Both the position numbers and the translations under genes were made by a program. Positions 42,608 to 56,790 of a stretch of 64,000 nt of DNA are shown piece by piece; the stretch's first letter is position 1, and each line of letters starts with the position of its first letter. A model generated the notes under the pieces. The model did not search any database and was not told where the DNA came from. It saw nothing but the letters and a program-made list of their open reading frames with translations. This DNA comes from Escherichia coli (GTDB lineage: Bacteria > Pseudomonadota > Gammaproteobacteria > Enterobacterales > Enterobacteriaceae): the NCBI RefSeq assembly GCF_036507355.1, contig NZ_AP027877.1; one strand, given 5' to 3'.

Positions 42608-42771
42608 AACTCAAGTCTCCTGAAGTCTACCAAACTCAATTTTTCCTTGATAAATCAGCAGTTATAGCTTTCTATTAGTCTATTGAACTCAATTGTACTC
42701 CCCCAGGGTCAAGCTCAATGTGGGGGTATGGATGGGGGTATAATTGTACCCCCTGCTGAGAGGTACCCCCA

Positions 42772-43998
42772 ATGAAGCTGACTGCTCGTCAGGTTGAAAC
42801 TGCGAAACCCAAAGAGAAGCCCTACAAACTGGCCGATGGTGGTGGGCTTTACCTGCTGGTTAATCCCAACGGTAAAAGATACTGGCGTCTCAAATACCGT
42901 TCGTTAGGTAAAGAGAAGCTGCTCGCTATTGGCGTTTATCCCGATGTTTCTTTAGCTGAGGCCCGAAGTAAGCGTGAGGATGCTAAAAGAACATTAGCGG
43001 CTGGCAACGATCCCTCTCTTGAACGAAAAATTGAGAAACTTAGTCGTCAACAAGACGCTGAAAACTCGTTTGAGGCTATCACACGGGAGTGGTATCAGCG
43101 TCGCTATGACCGCTGGTCTGTCTCCTACCGCGAAGAAATGCTGAGAACCTTTGAGAAAGATGTATTTCCTTATATCGGTCACAGGCCAATCAAAGATATC
43201 AAGCCGATGGAGTTGCTTGCAGTTCTTTCAAAGATAGAAGCACGAGGGGCAACAGAGAAAGTCCGCAAGGTTCGTCAGCGTTGTGGAGAGGTCTGGAAGT
43301 ATGCCGTTGTGACTGGGAGGGCCGAGTACAATCCAGCACCTGATCTAGCCAGCGCCGTGAGTCCTCATGAGAAAGAGCACTATGCTTTTTTAACCCAGGA
43401 TGAATTGCCTGAGTTTCTTCGGACTCTGAACGCCTATGCCGGTAGTGTGCTTGTTAAGATTGCGATGCAATTGCTCATTTTAACAGGAGTAAGGCCAGGG
43501 GAGTTGAGGCAAGCGGAGTGGCAGGAGTTTGATTTTGAGAAAAAGGTTTGGAATGTACCAGCGGAACGTATGAAAATGCGCCGCCCTCATCTTGTTCCAT
43601 TATCAAGCCAGGCAATTGACCTGCTTAATCAACTTAAACCCATAACGGGAGCAGGAGCGTTATTATTCCCAGGACGTAATAATCCTAAGAAACCGATGAG
43701 CGATATGGCATTGACTGTGTTGGTCAGGCGTATCGGCTATGCCGGGCGCGTTACAGGGCATGGATTCCGCCACACGATGAGTACCATTTTGCATGAGCAG
43801 GGATTCAACTCGGCCTGGATTGAGTTACAGCTGGCTCACGTCGATAAGAACTCAATTCGTGGGACGTATAACCATGCTCAATATTTGGAAGGTCGGCGGG
43901 AGATGATGCAGTGGTATGGAGATTTCATCGGTCAAGCAGGCAAATCCGGATCATCGCTAGCTTATGCAGCTATTAGCTTGACTGCTGAATTAGAGTGA
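42772..43998 (+). CDS. P4-type tyrosine integrase (island 2)
   Basis: 408 aa; N-terminal arm-binding MKLTARQVETAKPKEKPYKLADGGGLYLLVNPNGKRYWRLKYR; C-terminal GHGFRHTMSTIL...LAHVD...YNHAQY. Confidence 0.9.
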   Translation: MKLTARQVETAKPKEKPYKLADGGGLYLLVNPNGKRYWRLKYRSLGKEKLLAIGVYPDVSLAEARSKREDAKRTLAAGNDPSLERKIEKLSRQQDAENSFEAITREWYQRRYDRWSVSYREEMLRTFEKDVFPYIGHRPIKDIKPMELLAVLSKIEARGATEKVRKVRQRCGEVWKYAVVTGRAEYNPAPDLASAVSPHEKEHYAFLTQDELPEFLRTLNAYAGSVLVKIAMQLLILTGVRPGELRQAEWQEFDFEKKVWNVPAERMKMRRPHLVPLSSQAIDLLNQLKPITGAGALLFPGRNNPKKPMSDMALTVLVRRIGYAGRVTGHGFRHTMSTILHEQGFNSAWIELQLAHVDKNSIRGTYNHAQYLEGRREMMQWYGDFIGQAGKSGSSLAYAAISLTAELE

Positions 43999-44008
43999 GA
44001 AGGGGCAA

Positions 44009-44056
44009 GTTGAGCCTCTTCGCTGAGAAGAGGCTCAACGTGAACCTATTTTTTTG
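44009..44056 (+). terminator. Intrinsic terminator after int2
   Basis: Hairpin gttgagcctcttc-gctga-gaagaggctcaac followed by T-run. Confidence 0.65.
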
Positions 44057-44195
44057 GGAGTTAATACTTTTTGCAATTTTTTTTTTCGTGCCGTTGGATG
44101 TAAAGATCTGTGGGGGTTAGGGAAGAAAATCATGCTATGTTAGTCTTTGAGGAGTGAGTCAAAATGTTATAACTTTTTCAAAGAGGCGTTACATC

Positions 44196-45131
44196 GTGAA
44201 AGTCGTTTTTAATGTTAATGGTAAAAAAGTTCCGCTCAAATCTCTGCAATATATAAGTAAAGCAAATCAACTCGAAGTTATGCGGAATTGGTTTTTTGAG
44301 AATTTTGAAGATCCCGCGAACTCTTGCCCGTATGAATCCCGTGAAGGCGGGTATGCTTACATTTATGGGGGCCCATACGAAGCAAGTGAAGAGTTGCAAG
44401 CGATGTTTGAAGGACACGTGAAATTTGATTATATCCAAGAATTAGTCAATGAATTACAAGAACAGTGCTATGAATGGTCTGGTAATTCAAATAATATTAA
44501 TGATTGGTACGATGAAGACTTGTATGATGCTGTTACATCTTCTGAACATCCTTTTTCTAAGTTCGTTGAAAGCATTGATGGAATAAAATTGCTGTCTAAA
44601 GGCGAATTTAAAGATAAACAAAAAGATCATCTGCTTAGCATCCTATATATTAATGTCATTACAGCCCTGGAAACACTTTATGTTGAGTTATTTATTAACT
44701 CTATAGATAAAAACGACTCATATCTTGCTGACTTTATAGAAAAAGGTAAGACGGAATTTAAGGTAAATAAAGGAATATTGGCTTTGCCATTCAAAGGAGA
44801 AACTATTGAAAACATGAGGGCGCAATTAATTAAGGTAATTAAAGAGCATTTGATTAGTGCAAGTTGGCATAGTACAAACAAAGTTGTAGGACGTTATAAA
44901 GCTACATTTGATATAAAAGTACATAAAGAGTGGCCAATAGATGTGATCGAAATAGCAACTCAAAAGCGTAATCATTTAGTCCATCGTGGCGGGAAAGATA
45001 AAGAAGGTAATTCGGTAGTGATTACTGAACAGGATTTAGAAATGTTGCTGGATCACGCACAATCTCTTGGAGAAAAATTGTTTGATAGCCTTGAGGTGGC
45101 ATTACAGAAAAAAGATGAGAATGAATTTTGA
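44196..45131 (+). CDS. Hypothetical protein with HEPN-like Rx4H motif (possible abortive-infection RNase)
   Basis: ORF 44154-45131; GTG 44196 preferred (AAGAGG 9 nt upstream); motif KRNHLVHRGG near C-terminus. Confidence 0.4.
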   Translation: MKVVFNVNGKKVPLKSLQYISKANQLEVMRNWFFENFEDPANSCPYESREGGYAYIYGGPYEASEELQAMFEGHVKFDYIQELVNELQEQCYEWSGNSNNINDWYDEDLYDAVTSSEHPFSKFVESIDGIKLLSKGEFKDKQKDHLLSILYINVITALETLYVELFINSIDKNDSYLADFIEKGKTEFKVNKGILALPFKGETIENMRAQLIKVIKEHLISASWHSTNKVVGRYKATFDIKVHKEWPIDVIEIATQKRNHLVHRGGKDKEGNSVVITEQDLEMLLDHAQSLGEKLFDSLEVALQKKDENEF

Positions 45132-54586: not shown

Positions 54587-54604
54587 TGAATCGCCACGGA
54601 TAAT

Positions 54605-55417
54605 CTAGACACTTCCGAGCCGTTGATAATACTGGTTTTCATATTCTGTCGGTGACATCTGATCGCTGGAACCATGCCGACGCTTACTGTTATAAAACAT
54701 TTCGATGTAATCAAAAATATCGCTGCGGGCTTCTTCCCGCGTTCCGTAGATCTTTTTCTTTATCCGTTCGCGTTTCAACAACTGGAAAAAGCTTTCTGCA
54801 ACCGCATTATCATGGCAGTTACCGCGACGGCTCATGCTGCCCTCCAGGCCGTGTGATTTCAGGAACGACTGCCACTCATGGCTTGTGTACTGACTGCCCT
54901 GATCCGAATGAACCAGCACCTGTTTTTGGGGATTACGGCGCCATACAGCCATCAGCAGTGCGTTCAGGACAATGTCCTTTGTCATCCGGGATTGCATGGA
55001 CCAGCCGATAATTTTGCGTGAGAACAGATCAACAACCACGGCAAGATACAGCCAGCCTTCGTGGGTCCTGATGTAGGTTATGTCCGTTACCCAACGCTTA
55101 TCCGGAGCATCCGGATTGAACTGTCGCTGGAGCCTGTTGGGCGACACGATACTGGCCTCGCCTTTACGTGCCCGCGGGCTCCGGTATCCGACCTGAGCCT
55201 TTATCCCGACACGTTTCATCAGTCGCCAGACTCTGTTCACTCCGCACTGTTGCCCGCTGTCCCGCAGATCCAGATGGATTTTGCGATAACCATAGACGCA
55301 TCCCGATTCCAGCCAGAACTGTTTAATCTGCCCTGTCAGCCTCAGGTCTGCCTGATGGCGTTGTGAATGCGGCTGCTGAAGCCAGGCGTAAAAACCACTG
55401 GGATGAACATCCAGCAC
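54605..55417 (-). CDS. IS3-family transposase OrfB (DDE integrase domain)
   Basis: 270-aa ORF with ..[33 protein letters not shown].. DDE core. Confidence 0.85.
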
Positions 55418-55473
55418 CCGACAGAGCAGGCGAACAGGCCAGCAACAGGTGTTGTCACGGATAAAGGCGTACC

Positions 55474-55758
55474 TCAGTCGGACAGCTTTGCGAAGTACGC
55501 CGCGGCTTTTTTTAATATGTCCCGTTCGTCGGTAACCCGCTTCAGCTCTTTCTGGAGACGGCGGATCTCGGCCTGAGCATCTGACTGTTCTTTATTAGCG
55601 GAAGAATCCGGACCGTACTTCTTTATCCAGGCGTAAAGGCTGTGGGTGGTGATATCGAGACGTGTTGCAACGCTGGCAACAGAATAACCGCGATCAACAA
55701 CCTGTTTGACTGCTTCAATTTTAAACTCTTCGGGATAACGCTTACCGCTCATGGGCAC
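55474..55758 (-). CDS. IS3-family transposase OrfA (HTH)
   Basis: 94-aa ORF MPMSGKRYPEEFKIEAVKQVVDRGYSVASVATRLD...ILKKAAAYFAK. Confidence 0.85.
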   Translation of the reverse strand: MPMSGKRYPEEFKIEAVKQVVDRGYSVASVATRLDITTHSLYAWIKKYGPDSSANKEQSDAQAEIRRLQKELKRVTDERDILKKAAAYFAKLSD

Positions 55759-55812
55759 CTCTCTTTAAGCCATCTTAAATGACTCTGAGGTGTCTGTTAA
55801 ACCCGTGGCGAT

Positions 55813-56790
55813 TCACTCTAATGCTTTTTGAGCAGCAAGTTCAAGTTCACTTTTTCCATGAAGTGCCAAAGACATATGGCATTCCGCTAGAAGGCAATAA
55901 CATTCTGTTTTTAGCGTCTGTATATCACTTTTATTTTGTAATCCATCAAATATAGTCATGGCCCTGTAAATGCTTTCAGGGGTGAACTCGTAAAGTTCTT
56001 TCTTTCCGGCTAACATTTCATCTGATAAATAATGATTCTTATATCCTTGGTCCTGCTTAGCTAATCTTACAGATCGTTCTGGTTTATGTACCGTTTGAAG
56101 GATATTATCTATAATAAATTGTGATGTATTATGTAGTTCATCAACAGGGAGATGATTACTGGCGATGAGGAAAAGGTTTTTAGCGTCGATCAACTCAATG
56201 TATAAAGTGTTCACTGCATTATTCTGGTTTATTCTTCCTGTAACGAAATAATCTGGCTTGAATCTGCTCAAGAATGAATTTTGAGATATGTGGTCATTAC
56301 AAAAATTTGTCGCAGCCATCGGATAGGTATAGAGACCATCGATTTTTTTATTTGAAATGATTTGTACTAATTCCTGATTAAGTATTAATGGATCCAGTGT
56401 ATTCAATGAAGTGGTGAAAGGGAATATAGCTATGGAATAGTCTGAAGTATTATCTTCATTAATTTTAGTTTTGAAAACCTGCCCGCTGAAACGATAACCT
56501 TTCCGGTAGATTGTTTCTATGCAGCGATCATAGCCAATTTTTTCAAAAATGCAGCGCAAAGAATAGATACATCTTGTCAGGGACTCGTCACTAACAATAA
56601 TATTTTTCCATACTGATTCGATGATCATATCTTTCAGTACAACATGACCAGCGGATTCAAGTAATACTATTAATACACCTAACTCTTTCGGTGGAATATA
56701 AACTTGCTCATTTCCTTGAGTAAGAATTCCATCTTCCGTGAGCGTTAATCCCTCAAGAAAATGATATGAGAATTTATTTTCTAAGTCCAT
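55813..56790 (-). pseudogene. ygeH: ETT2 HilA-like regulator YgeH, C-terminally truncated by the IS3-family element
   Basis: 325-aa ORF with OmpR/ToxR-type winged helix ([31 protein letters not shown]...YRKGYRF); stop codon is the IS terminal TGA; full-length about 458 aa as I recall. Confidence 0.6.

What the first reader, a model, noticed from the sequence alone, without database searches (positions are those of the whole stretch)
42608..55815. Second glyU island: P4-type integrase plus defence candidates plus arsenic resistance, ending at an IS
About 13 kb after the second att copy hold int2, the HEPN-motif gene, the ATPase operon, arsRDABC, an arsN-like acetyltransferase, a sigma/arsA' remnant and a truncated arsH. 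No distal att repeat was seen before the IS3-family element, so the far boundary was probably removed by IS-mediated rearrangement. Co-carriage of phage-defence candidates and metal resistance on one tRNA-linked island is worth noting.
Basis: partly seen in the sequence, partly recalled or inferred. Interest (0 to 1): 0.5.

Follow-up and report, generated by a model that had tools for sequence, protein, structure and literature searches.

The report
Truncated glyU island: defence plus arsenic
This is the front half of a mosaic mobile island inserted at the E. coli glyU tRNA gene, carrying two candidate anti-phage modules and an arsenic-resistance cluster; an insertion sequence has cut off its back half, so it is an ordinary but nicely documented example of a known kind of element.

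Summary
A second exact 23-bp copy of the glyU 3' end (42585-42607) is followed by a P4-type integrase, an HEPN-motif gene, a three-gene ABC-3C (Lamassu-superfamily) operon, arsRDABC, an ArsN-like GNAT, a sigma/arsA fusion remnant and a 5'-truncated arsH. The island stops at 54584-54586 against a 1229-bp IS3-family element (54587-55815).

The IS-deletion idea is supported. The IS sits between truncated arsH and truncated ygeH and has no target duplication. An E. coli relative (23S01245-7, 99.86% identical) carries the whole 22.3-kb island, including a distal att and an AlpA gene.

The single-element reading is only partly right. Integrase, defence cassette (43922-48349, 35% GC) and ars module (51.5% GC) each recur separately in other islands. 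Sister glyU islands carry SIR2-HerA, Lamassu or Gabija in the same slot. The cassette also sits in a thrW island behind a 64%-identical integrase.

In this window the ABC-3C effector gene is frameshifted by an 8-bp duplication, so that system is probably dead, and the island can no longer excise on its own.

Verdict: a new member of a known kind, of modest interest.

The parts
38390..38412 (+). 3' end of glyU (tRNA-Gly CCC): first att core copy and proximal boundary of island 1
42585..42607 (+). Second exact att core copy. It is the boundary between island 1 and island 2, acting as the attL-equivalent of island 2.
   Evidence: In 23S01245-7 the same island-2 left end follows the tRNA itself.
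42722..42770 (.). Cluster of GGGGGTA (x2) and TACCCCC (x2) repeats just upstream of int2, probably integrase arm-type binding sites
   Evidence: only one other GGGGGTA in the 64 kb. Two GGGGGTA also lie 61-73 bp inside the distal att of the intact island in 23S01245-7. Function is inferred.
42772..43998 (+). int2, a P4-type tyrosine integrase of 408 aa
   Evidence: Pfam domains. Found at glyU in 18 of 5426 E. coli genomes.
43922..48349 (.). Exchangeable low-GC (35%) defence cassette. Left breakpoint is 77 nt before the int2 stop; right breakpoint is at the start of arsR.
44196..45131 (+). HEPN/RES-NTD1 + RiboL-PSP-type HEPN protein (311 aa), a candidate stand-alone RNase defence or toxin gene. 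The ORF is intact.
   Evidence: Homologues stand alone beside Thoeris and on plasmids.
45207..46910 (-). ABC-3C ABC ATPase (DUF2326, 567 aa; PADLOC PDC-M68B) with a central coiled coil. It is the LmuB-analogous sensor.
46911..47183 (-). ABC-3C middle component 6 (90 aa), the LmuC-analogous subunit
   Evidence: PF20293, 60 bits
47167..48122 (-). ABC-3C effector pseudogene: restriction-endonuclease-fold N-terminal domain plus CTD10. It is frameshifted at about codon 238 of 315.
47403..47410 (.). 8-bp tandem duplication CAAGACCA that causes the frameshift. It is absent from 23S01245-7 (L001) and Combat11I9 (L002), the two relatives aligned base by base.
48333..52637 (+). arsR-arsD-arsA-arsB-arsC, an ATP-driven arsenite efflux operon with arsenate reductase. 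All five genes are intact.
52672..53208 (-). GNAT acetyltransferase related to arsinothricin/phosphinothricin N-acetyltransferases (ArsN1-like, below the family cut-off)
53333..54034 (-). Remnants of a second ars cluster: the 3' end of arsA2 (53333-53575) fused to the 5' part of a sigma-70-family gene (53624-54034). A ~2.06-kb deletion, with its junction at 53625/53626, also removed arsD2.
54043..54584 (-). arsH lacking its first ~55 codons and its promoter; cut by the IS
54587..55815 (-). IS3-family insertion sequence, 1229 bp. Terminal inverted repeats TGAATCGCCACGG...; orfA 55474-55758, orfB 54605-55417. No target-site duplication.
55813..56790 (-). ygeH (ETT2 regulator) truncated at codon 325 of 458 by the IS. 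This is the other edge of the deletion.

Best explanation
Window 42585-54584/86 is the integrase-proximal 12 kb of a roughly 22-kb CP4-like integrative island. The island uses a P4-type tyrosine integrase to insert into the 3' end of glyU.

The island is a mosaic of three exchangeable modules:
1. att, arm sites and integrase.
2. A 4.4-kb low-GC defence cassette in the integrase-proximal cargo slot.
3. An arsenic-resistance module: arsRDABC plus the remains of a second, divergent cluster of arsN-like, arsA2, arsD2, sigma and arsH genes.

The cassette holds two independent candidate immunity genes or systems. One is a single HEPN-family predicted RNase. The other is an ABC-3C operon of the Lamassu superfamily. 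By analogy with solved Lamassu complexes, an SMC/Rad50-like ABC ATPase (DUF2326) and a small middle component (MC6) would hold a restriction-endonuclease-fold effector inactive through its C-terminal domain (CTD10). They would release it to oligomerise and cut DNA when foreign DNA is sensed (inferred).

In this strain an IS3-family element, or recombination or deletion adjacent to it, removed several things:
- the arsH 5' end and arsR2;
- the AlpA-type regulator and the CP4-like backbone;
- the distal att;
- the glyU-proximal ETT2 genes up to the middle of ygeH.

Island 2 therefore can no longer excise on its own. Separately, an 8-bp duplication frameshifts the ABC-3C effector within its C-terminal domain, so that system is most likely inactive. 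The HEPN gene and arsRDABC remain intact.
For: Shown:
- The att duplicate is exact and non-random.
- Domain content is as described.
- The region is 99.86% identical to 23S01245-7. There the island is bounded by glyU and a distal att with 2 mismatches, 22.3 kb apart, and carries AlpA, YfjJ/Gp2, a YeeP-like GTPase, DUF932, antirestriction, RadC and YeeU/CbtA genes.
- The IS is flanked by arsH positions 56-219 of 219 and ygeH positions 1-325 of 458, with no target duplication. This junction occurs in 0 of 5426 complete genomes.

Mosaicism:
- Per-segment GC is 47.5%, 35.1% and 51.5%.
- The same integrase carries SIR2-HerA (HH107, MS 115-1), or Lamassu plus Gabija (C51), or other cargo (BMH-17-0027).
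- The cassette is 93-97% identical in a thrW island whose integrase is 64% identical.
- The ars module is 96% identical in another thrW island and 82-91% identical on plasmids.

ABC-3C:
- The CTD10-MC6-DUF2326 gene order is conserved in Geobacter at 45% identity.
- The Walker A residues N39, G42 and K43 and the Walker B residue D487 are invariant.
- The Lamassu mechanism is taken from bioRxiv 10.1101/2025.03.14.643221 and 10.1101/2025.04.02.646746.
- The frameshift is shown. Toxicity-relieving mutations of V. cholerae DdmA also map to its C-terminal domain (PMC11707656).
Against: - No experiment exists for the DUF2326/MC6/CTD10 subtype or for this HEPN family. PADLOC lists the subtype only as candidate PDC-M68.
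- Sequence-level links to LmuA and LmuB are marginal: LmuB HMM 18.5 bits, LmuA HMM 14.5 bits. Profiles against the PDB give no LmuA hit, and LmuB only at E 0.97.
- Foldseek found nothing significant for either model.
- The HEPN Pfam model hits homologues but not the query itself.
- The catalytic residues of the effector are guessed.
- The order and mechanism of the IS event (one deletion, or recombination between two IS copies) cannot be reconstructed.
- Whether the truncated effector is truly inactive is inferred.
Confidence: 0.8

Rival explanations
1. One element with one history: int2, the defence genes and ars were acquired together and have always travelled together.
For: Five complete E. 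coli genomes carry int2, the HEPN gene, the ABC-3C operon and ars in the same order at glyU, at 96-99.9% identity. In 23S01245-7 a single att pair encloses all of them.
Against: - GC jumps from 47.5% to 35.1% to 51.5% across the three segments.
- Of 18 genomes with this integrase at glyU, 13 lack the cassette. Two of those examined (BMH-17-0027, C51) also lack ars.
- The cassette and the ars module each occur in thrW islands with a 63-64%-identical integrase.
- Against Combat11I9 the cassette is 98-99% identical while the flanks are 93-95%.
Confidence: 0.1
2. Not one island but several independent chromosomal insertions that merely lie side by side downstream of int2. For example, ars could have arrived by its own transposon and the defence genes by another.
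For: Composition is strongly heterogeneous. The ars module occurs on plasmids without int2.
Against: - There are no internal att copies, IS ends or transposon boundaries between the modules.
- In the intact relative all modules lie inside one att pair together with a CP4-like backbone.
- Cassette breakpoints fall inside conserved anchor genes (the int 3' tail and arsR). This fits homologous exchange between related islands, not insertion into the chromosome.
Confidence: 0.07
3. The IS simply inserted at the natural end of a short island and nothing was deleted.
For: No distal att was ever observed in this strain.
Against: - arsH and ygeH are both cut mid-gene exactly at the IS ends, and the flanking triplets differ (GCA versus CTC), so there is no target-site duplication.
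- Relatives continue through full arsH, arsR2 and a backbone.
Confidence: 0.03
4. The HEPN gene and the ABC-3C operon are not anti-phage defence. They could be an addiction or toxin module that stabilises the island, or a DNA-repair-like function.
For: There is no experimental validation. The ABC-3C operon is disrupted in 3 of 7 known copies, which shows it is dispensable. HEPN proteins often act as toxins of toxin-antitoxin pairs.
Against: - The same slot in sister islands holds the known, named defence systems SIR2-HerA, Lamassu and Gabija.
- HEPN homologues sit beside Thoeris.
- The architecture and effector fold parallel Lamassu.
- Abortive-infection systems are themselves toxic, so the two readings overlap.
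Confidence: 0.2

Closest known systems
Integrase-associated mobile defence islands at E. coli tRNA hotspots (Hochhauser et al. 2023, PMC10121019), including CP4-57/CP4-6-type P4-integrase islands
   Same: - P4-type integrase next to a tRNA 3' end, with a direct repeat of the tRNA end.
- Variable defence cargo immediately downstream of the integrase.
- No phage or conjugation genes.
- An AlpA and YeeU/CbtA-type backbone in the intact relative.
   Different: - This copy has lost its distal half and its attR to an IS-associated deletion.
- It sits in tandem with a second glyU island.
- It also carries a large arsenic-resistance module.
- The paper text that was searched does not mention glyU, ygeR/actS or arsenic.
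Lamassu (LmuA-LmuC-LmuB; DdmABC of Vibrio cholerae; Salmonella LmuACB)
   Same: - Three-gene order: effector, small middle protein, SMC/Rad50-like ABC ATPase with a coiled coil.
- The effector is an N-terminal PD-(D/E)xK-fold nuclease domain plus an 'ABC-3C C-terminal domain'.
- A review places ABC-3C within the Lamassu superfamily (PMC10586767).
   Different: - Different Pfam families are involved: DUF2326, MC6 and CTD10, against DUF3732, MC3 and CTD7.
- PADLOC Lmu HMMs score only 14-18 bits, and the system is filed as candidate PDC-M68.
- There is no sequence-level hit to solved structures.
- It has not been tested experimentally.
- The copy in this window is frameshifted.
[quoted passage not shown] 2020, cited)
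   Same: All three defining Pfam families are present above their gathering thresholds: DUF2326 at 102.9 bits, MC6 at 60 bits and CTD10 at 39.6 bits.
   Different: Nothing differs structurally. This is a member of the family, and RefSeq already names the genes accordingly.
arsRDABC operon of enterobacterial plasmids (R773 type, from my own knowledge), and the extended ars clusters on large E. coli plasmids
   Same: Same five genes in the same order, all passing NCBIfam equivalog or subfamily cut-offs. The whole extended module is 82-91% identical to copies on 145-299-kb E. coli plasmids.
   Different: The module here is chromosomal and lies inside a tRNA island. The second, divergently oriented cluster is degraded by a 2.06-kb internal deletion and the IS truncation.
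RiboL-PSP-type HEPN proteins with the HEPN/RES N-terminal domain 1 (Pfam PF18735 and PF18870)
   Same: The Rx4H motif is invariant. PF18870 is found in 52 of 57 family members and PF18735 in 27 of 57. The predicted C-terminal domain is helical.
   Different: The query itself scores below the PF18870 threshold (24.2 versus 27.4 bits) and does not hit PF18735. The fold search was not significant. No function has been demonstrated.

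Membership tests
tRNA-integrated P4-type-integrase genomic island | Tyrosine recombinase with a P4-type arm-binding N-terminal domain | tested here: met
   Arm-DNA-bind_3 at 98 bits, Phage_int_M at 115 bits and Phage_integrase at 96 bits
tRNA-integrated P4-type-integrase genomic island | Proximal boundary is a direct repeat of the tRNA 3' end | tested here: met
   Exact 23-bp copy at 42585-42607, with 0 expected by chance. In three relatives the same left end abuts glyU itself.
tRNA-integrated P4-type-integrase genomic island | Distal att repeat bounding the element | tested here: not met
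   There is no third copy in the 64 kb at up to 3 mismatches. The intact relative has one 22.3 kb from attL, so its absence here is secondary.
tRNA-integrated P4-type-integrase genomic island | Recombination directionality factor or regulator (AlpA family) | tested here: not met
   No AlpA-family gene was found in 42608-54584: the ORFs of at least 80 aa were assigned to other functions or overlap assigned genes, but small ORFs were not scanned for AlpA. PF05930 is present in the part of the relative's island that is deleted here.
ABC-3C system | ABC ATPase of an ABC-3C clade with conserved nucleotide-binding motifs | tested here: met
   DUF2326 at 102.9 bits. N39, G42, K43 and D487 are invariant in 56 sequences.
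ABC-3C system | Small middle component | tested here: met
   PF20293 MC6 at 60 bits, against a cut-off of 27.2
ABC-3C system | Effector with an ABC-3C C-terminal domain | tested here: inconclusive
   CTD10 scores 39.6 bits in the intact allele of 23S01245-7. In the window the gene is frameshifted at about codon 238, so the last ~77 residues of the domain are lost.
ABC-3C system | Conserved three-gene operon | tested here: met
   Same order, with overlapping genes, in Geobacter metallireducens at 45% identity
Lamassu (strict sense, LmuA/B/C models) | LmuB-family SMC-like ATPase recognised by Lamassu HMMs | tested here: not met
   PADLOC LmuB scores 18.5 bits over residues 38-98 only, and the best model is PDC-M68B at 244 bits. 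The profile against solved LmuB gives E 0.97.
Lamassu (strict sense, LmuA/B/C models) | LmuA-like effector: nuclease domain plus oligomerisation CTD | tested here: inconclusive
Lamassu (strict sense, LmuA/B/C models) | Anti-phage or anti-plasmid activity | not testable with these tools
   Needs phage challenge of a cloned intact operon
HEPN superfamily (RiboL-PSP type) | Rx4-6H catalytic motif | tested here: met
   R258-N-H-L-V-H263 is invariant across 57 homologues
HEPN superfamily (RiboL-PSP type) | Match to the family profile or fold | tested here: inconclusive
   PF18735 is hit by 27 of 57 homologues but not by the query. Foldseek HEPN toxin hits have E of 1 or more.
ArsRDABC arsenic resistance operon | All five genes, intact, in order | tested here: met
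   ArsR 229 bits (cut-off 97), ArsD 134 (90), ArsA 942 (650), ArsB 722 (457), ArsC 301 (242)
ArsN1 arsinothricin N-acetyltransferase | Score above the NCBIfam equivalog cut-off | tested here: not met
   ArsN1b scores 146 bits against a cut-off of 210. 'ArsN-like GNAT' is the most that can be said.
IS3 family insertion sequence | orfA (HTH) and orfB (DDE rve) with TG...CA inverted repeats | tested here: met
   HTH_Tnp_1 at 72 bits and rve at 116 bits. Ends are TGAATCGCCACGG / CCGTGGCGATTCA. 100%-identical copies exist in other genomes.
IS3 family insertion sequence | 3-4-bp target-site duplication | tested here: not met
   The flanks are GCA versus CTC, as expected after an adjacent deletion or inter-IS recombination.

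The most novel reading that the evidence does not exclude
The CTD10-MC6-DUF2326 operon is a functional, sequence-distinct branch of Lamassu-like immunity with a new restriction-fold effector. The neighbouring HEPN/RES-NTD1 HEPN gene is an independent single-gene defence. Both travel as a 4.4-kb cassette that is swapped between glyU and thrW islands by recombination anchored in the conserved integrase 3' end and in arsR. The system is costly enough to be knocked out repeatedly: 3 of 7 known copies are disrupted, two of them at the same 8-bp spot of the effector gene.
Probability: 0.35. Interest if true: 0.45.

Novelty: new member of a known kind. Interest (0 to 1): 0.3.

Why it matters
The locus illustrates how E. 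coli tRNA islands are built. A conserved integrase and att module and a conserved backbone frame a slot where defence cassettes are exchanged, while a metal-resistance module rides along.

It also shows how such islands become fixed and decay, through IS-mediated loss of attR and frameshift of a probably toxic effector.

In practice, it points to an untested ABC-3C subtype and an untested HEPN gene as defence candidates, because they occupy the slot that holds SIR2-HerA, Lamassu or Gabija in sister islands.

None of this overturns current understanding.

Tried and rejected
- **Third att copy.** None was found in the window at up to 3 mismatches. In the first five fetched loci, allowing up to 5 substitutions, only the proximal copy appeared. 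The distal copy turned up only after fetching more of 23S01245-7.
- **Sequence searches against solved structures.** The effector, the ATPase and the HEPN protein gave nothing useful, either as single sequences or as profiles. The ATPase profile gave only coiled-coil noise and LmuB at E 0.97.
- **PADLOC on int2, the HEPN gene, MC6 and the GNAT.** No hits.
- **Phage collection.** No match to the cassette, so a phage or satellite origin was not supported. Plasmids carry only HEPN-gene homologues at about 74% nt.
- **Literature.** No paper combines glyU, arsenic and island. Nothing was found on PDC-M68, and the only DUF2326 mention is an unrelated Clostridium botulinum genome paper.
- **Functional link between the HEPN gene and the ABC-3C operon.** Considered and rejected: distant homologues of each occur without the other.
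- **The 8-bp duplication as an IS footprint.** Considered but not testable here; left as unexplained.

Full report
**1. Context**

The window is E. coli chromosome. It holds one tRNA gene, tRNA-Gly(CCC), which is glyU, at 38339-38412 on the plus strand. Upstream lie actS/ygeR and the xdh genes. Downstream lies the low-GC ETT2 remnant with ygeH, ygeG and the yqe genes.

The 23-bp tRNA 3' end TTCGATTCCCTTCGCCCGCTCCA occurs exactly twice, at 38390-38412 and 42585-42607. No third copy exists at up to three mismatches, and none is expected by chance. Two elements therefore lie in tandem. Island 1 (38413-42584) has a 543-aa integrase. The island of this finding starts at 42608.

**2. Observation check**

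- **int2** (42772-43998) has the P4-type architecture Arm-DNA-bind_3 + Phage_int_M + Phage_integrase.
- **The HEPN-motif gene** is best placed at 44196-45131, using the RefSeq start in relatives. It has an R-x4-H motif that is invariant in 57 homologues. Pfam HEPN_RES_NTD1 is found in 52 of 57 family members and HEPN_RiboL-PSP in 27 of 57. The query itself stays below threshold, at 24.2 versus 27.4 bits.
- **The 'ATPase operon'** on the minus strand is an ABC-three-component system. It comprises a DUF2326 ABC ATPase (45207-46910), middle component MC6 (46911-47183) and an effector carrying CTD10 (47167-48122). RefSeq already uses these names in near-identical genomes. PADLOC files the ATPase as candidate PDC-M68B at 244 bits.
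- **arsR, arsD, arsA, arsB and arsC** (48333-52637) all pass NCBIfam cut-offs.
- **The GNAT** (52672-53208) is closest to ArsN1 family B but scores below its cut-off, 146 versus 210 bits.
- **The sigma/arsA ORF** (53333-53866) is a fusion created by a ~2.06-kb deletion. Combat11I9 keeps the full arsA2, arsD2 and sigma-70 genes.
- **arsH** retains profile positions 56-219 of 219.

The island ends at 54584-54586. A 1229-bp IS3-family element occupies 54587-55815. It has TG...CA inverted repeats and orfA/orfB.

**3. The far boundary**

The IS abuts a 5'-truncated arsH on one side and a ygeH cut at codon 325 of 458 on the other. The flanking triplets differ (GCA versus CTC), so there is no target-site duplication. 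No complete E. coli genome of the 5426 searched has this arsH'-IS-ygeH' junction.

An intact version of the island exists. In E. coli 23S01245-7 (NZ_OZ197100.1) the 12 kb from 42585 to 54584 is 99.86% identical, with 6 substitutions and 2 indels. There the island continues through:

- full arsH, arsR2 and a zinc-ribbon protein;
- YfjJ/Gp2 and an AlpA-family protein (PF05930);
- a YeeP-like GTPase, DUF932, antirestriction, RadC, DUF987 and YeeU/CbtA.

It ends at a distal att, TTCTAATCCCTTCGCCCGCTCCA, 22.3 kb from glyU.

Paired GGGGGTA/TACCCCC repeats lie just inside both ends. They are at 42722-42770 in the window and 61-73 bp from the distal att in the relative. They are rare elsewhere and are plausible arm-type integrase sites, though this is inferred.

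The event removed about 10 kb of island, the attR and the glyU-proximal ETT2 genes.

In 23S01245-7 the homologue of island 1 lies after island 2 rather than before it, and is followed by a third att copy. The two elements therefore integrated independently and in opposite order in the two lineages.

**4. One element or several histories?**

Composition changes abruptly between segments:

| Segment | GC |
|---|---|
| Integrase segment | 47.5% |
| Defence segment | 35.1% (GC3 25-34%) |
| ars segment | 51.5% |

An int2-type integrase at glyU occurs in 18 of 5426 genomes. Only five of these carry the HEPN and ABC-3C cassette. The other glyU islands examined carry different cargo in the same slot:

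- SIR2-HerA in HH107 and MS 115-1; LD93-1 gave the same match pattern but was not examined directly;
- Lamassu LmuA/C/B plus Gabija GajA/B in C51;
- GIY-YIG, DUF1173 and methyltransferase genes in BMH-17-0027.

In all of these, homology to the window stops at about 43922. That is 77 nt before the int2 stop, just after the conserved ...MMQWY motif that follows the catalytic tyrosine. In the ars-carrying islands homology resumes at the start of arsR, near 48349.

The sixth genome with the cassette, CAVP773, has it at thrW. There the integrase body is only 64% identical in protein. From the integrase tail onwards the DNA is 86-97% identical. The cassette is followed by an arsR fragment and then nickel/cobalt resistance genes instead of the ars pump.

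Conversely, the full ars module (96% identity) and the same distal backbone occur in another thrW island with other cargo. The ars module alone occurs at 82-91% identity on 145-299-kb plasmids.

Against Combat11I9 the cassette is 98-99% identical while int2 and ars are 93-95% identical. This suggests a more recent exchange of the cassette.

So the three modules have separate histories and are shuffled among related islands. In this lineage they nevertheless formed a single att-bounded unit.

**5. What the defence candidates are**

The two candidates are independent of each other.

- The CTD10-MC6-DUF2326 trio occurs on its own in Geobacter metallireducens at 45% identity, with the same order and overlapping genes.
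- HEPN-gene homologues occur without it. They are found next to Thoeris genes in Aeromonas, next to another HEPN gene in Pseudoalteromonas, and on enterobacterial plasmids at about 74% nt.

*The ATPase.* It has invariant Walker A (N39, G42, K43) and Walker B (D487) residues and a central coiled coil.

*Mechanism, by analogy.* Reviews place ABC-3C within the Lamassu superfamily (PMC10586767). In solved Lamassu systems, LmuB2-LmuC sequesters the oligomerisation domain of LmuA. DNA-end or replication-origin sensing releases LmuA, which tetramerises into an active nuclease and aborts infection (bioRxiv 10.1101/2025.03.14.643221 and 10.1101/2025.04.02.646746). I infer the same logic here, at about 50% confidence.

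Strict Lamassu membership is not shown. Lmu HMMs score only 14-18 bits, and profile searches do not reach the solved LmuA or LmuB.

*The HEPN protein.* It is predicted to be an RNase-type toxin or effector. Its fold search was not significant.

**6. State of the locus in this strain**

An 8-bp tandem duplication, CAAGACCA|CAAGACCA at 47395-47410, frameshifts the effector at about codon 238 of 315. This removes the most conserved C-terminal motif, with invariant residues F300, E301, C303, D304 and Y306. It is absent from the two relatives aligned base by base, 23S01245-7 and Combat11I9.

In V. cholerae DdmA, toxicity-relieving mutations likewise map to the C-terminal domain (PMC11707656). The ABC-3C system is therefore probably inactive here.

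Two of the six other known copies are also disrupted. ISSen4 sits in the effector gene of CAVP773, with its 4-bp target duplication at the very same position as the window's duplication. IS903B sits in the ATPase gene of MSB1_9D. Three disrupted copies out of seven hints at a fitness cost, but the numbers are small.

The HEPN gene, the ATPase gene, MC6, arsRDABC and the GNAT are intact. Without attR and AlpA, island 2 cannot excise on its own. Island 1 is still flanked by two perfect att copies.

**7. Novelty and score**

tRNA-linked, integrase-only islands carrying variable defence systems are well described for E. coli: 41 hotspots, 18 of them at tRNA genes (PMC10121019). ABC-3C systems and RiboL-PSP HEPN proteins are known computational families. 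arsRDABC is classical.

The genes are already named in RefSeq relatives, but I found no paper describing this glyU island or its arsenic module. I rate it a new member of a known kind, with interest 0.3.

The most novel reading still open is that the DUF2326/MC6/CTD10 operon and the HEPN gene are real, costly and untested immune systems, exchanged as a cassette at fixed breakpoints.

Noticed in passing
window 38413-42584 versus L006 (NZ_OZ197100.1 16257-20733): The two glyU islands are in opposite order in this window (island 1, then island 2) and in strain 23S01245-7 (island 2, then the island-1 homologue, then a third perfect att). The two elements therefore integrated independently. Island 1 here is still flanked by two perfect att copies and may remain excisable.
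   Followed up: partly
window 47395-47410; L007 15300-15310 and 16525-16540: The 8-bp duplication that frameshifts the ABC-3C effector lies at the same spot where ISSen4 (4-bp target duplication ACCG) is inserted in strain CAVP773. Two independent disruptions fall within about 4 bp of each other in a 948-bp gene. This could be an insertion hotspot, a footprint or coincidence (roughly 1% a priori, but noticed post hoc).
   Followed up: partly
window 45207-48122; L007; L017: The ABC-3C operon is disrupted in 3 of the 7 known copies. The window has a frameshift, CAVP773 has ISSen4 in the effector gene, and MSB1_9D has IS903B in the ATPase gene. This suggests relaxed or negative selection, but the numbers are small.
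   Followed up: partly
window 53625/53626: A ~2.06-kb deletion, with 2-bp microhomology at the junction, removed arsD2, most of arsA2 and the 3' end of a sigma-70-family gene. It created the fused 177-aa ORF at 53333-53866. The deletion is shared with 23S01245-7 but not with Combat11I9, HH107 or Res13-Lact-PER13-34.
   Followed up: yes
window 55813-62000: This is the ETT2 remnant. ygeH is cut at codon 325 of 458 by the IS, and all type III secretion genes that lie between glyU and ygeH in strains such as 23S01245-7 and LD91-1 are absent here. GC is about 33%.
   Followed up: partly
L004 (E. coli MS 115-1) 10588-13508; L003 (HH107): The slot occupied here by the HEPN and ABC-3C genes holds a SIR2-HerA pair in HH107 (PADLOC HerA 559 bits, SIR2 180 bits) and the same two proteins, by accession, in MS 115-1. 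Both are followed by the same ars module. In MS 115-1, arsA and arsB are themselves fused by a deletion.
   Followed up: partly
L015 (E. coli C51) 20835-23685 and 29409-32967: Another glyU island with the same integrase carries a canonical Lamassu system (LmuA 254 bits, LmuC 75 bits, and LmuB cut at residue 402 by IS1) together with Gabija GajA/GajB. Lamassu-type systems therefore recur in this slot in different sequence families.
   Followed up: partly
window 43922-43998 (int2 C-terminal tail): The last ~25 codons of the integrase gene belong to the exchangeable cassette rather than to the integrase module. They are 100% identical in Combat11I9, 86% identical in the thrW island of CAVP773 and unrelated in the other glyU islands. 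Integrases with the same core therefore end in different tails, giving lengths of 388-412 aa.
   Followed up: partly
window 46153-46155: There is a 3-bp (TTT) length difference in the DUF2326 gene between the window (567 aa, as in Combat11I9) and 23S01245-7 (566 aa). It is in frame and probably harmless.
   Followed up: no
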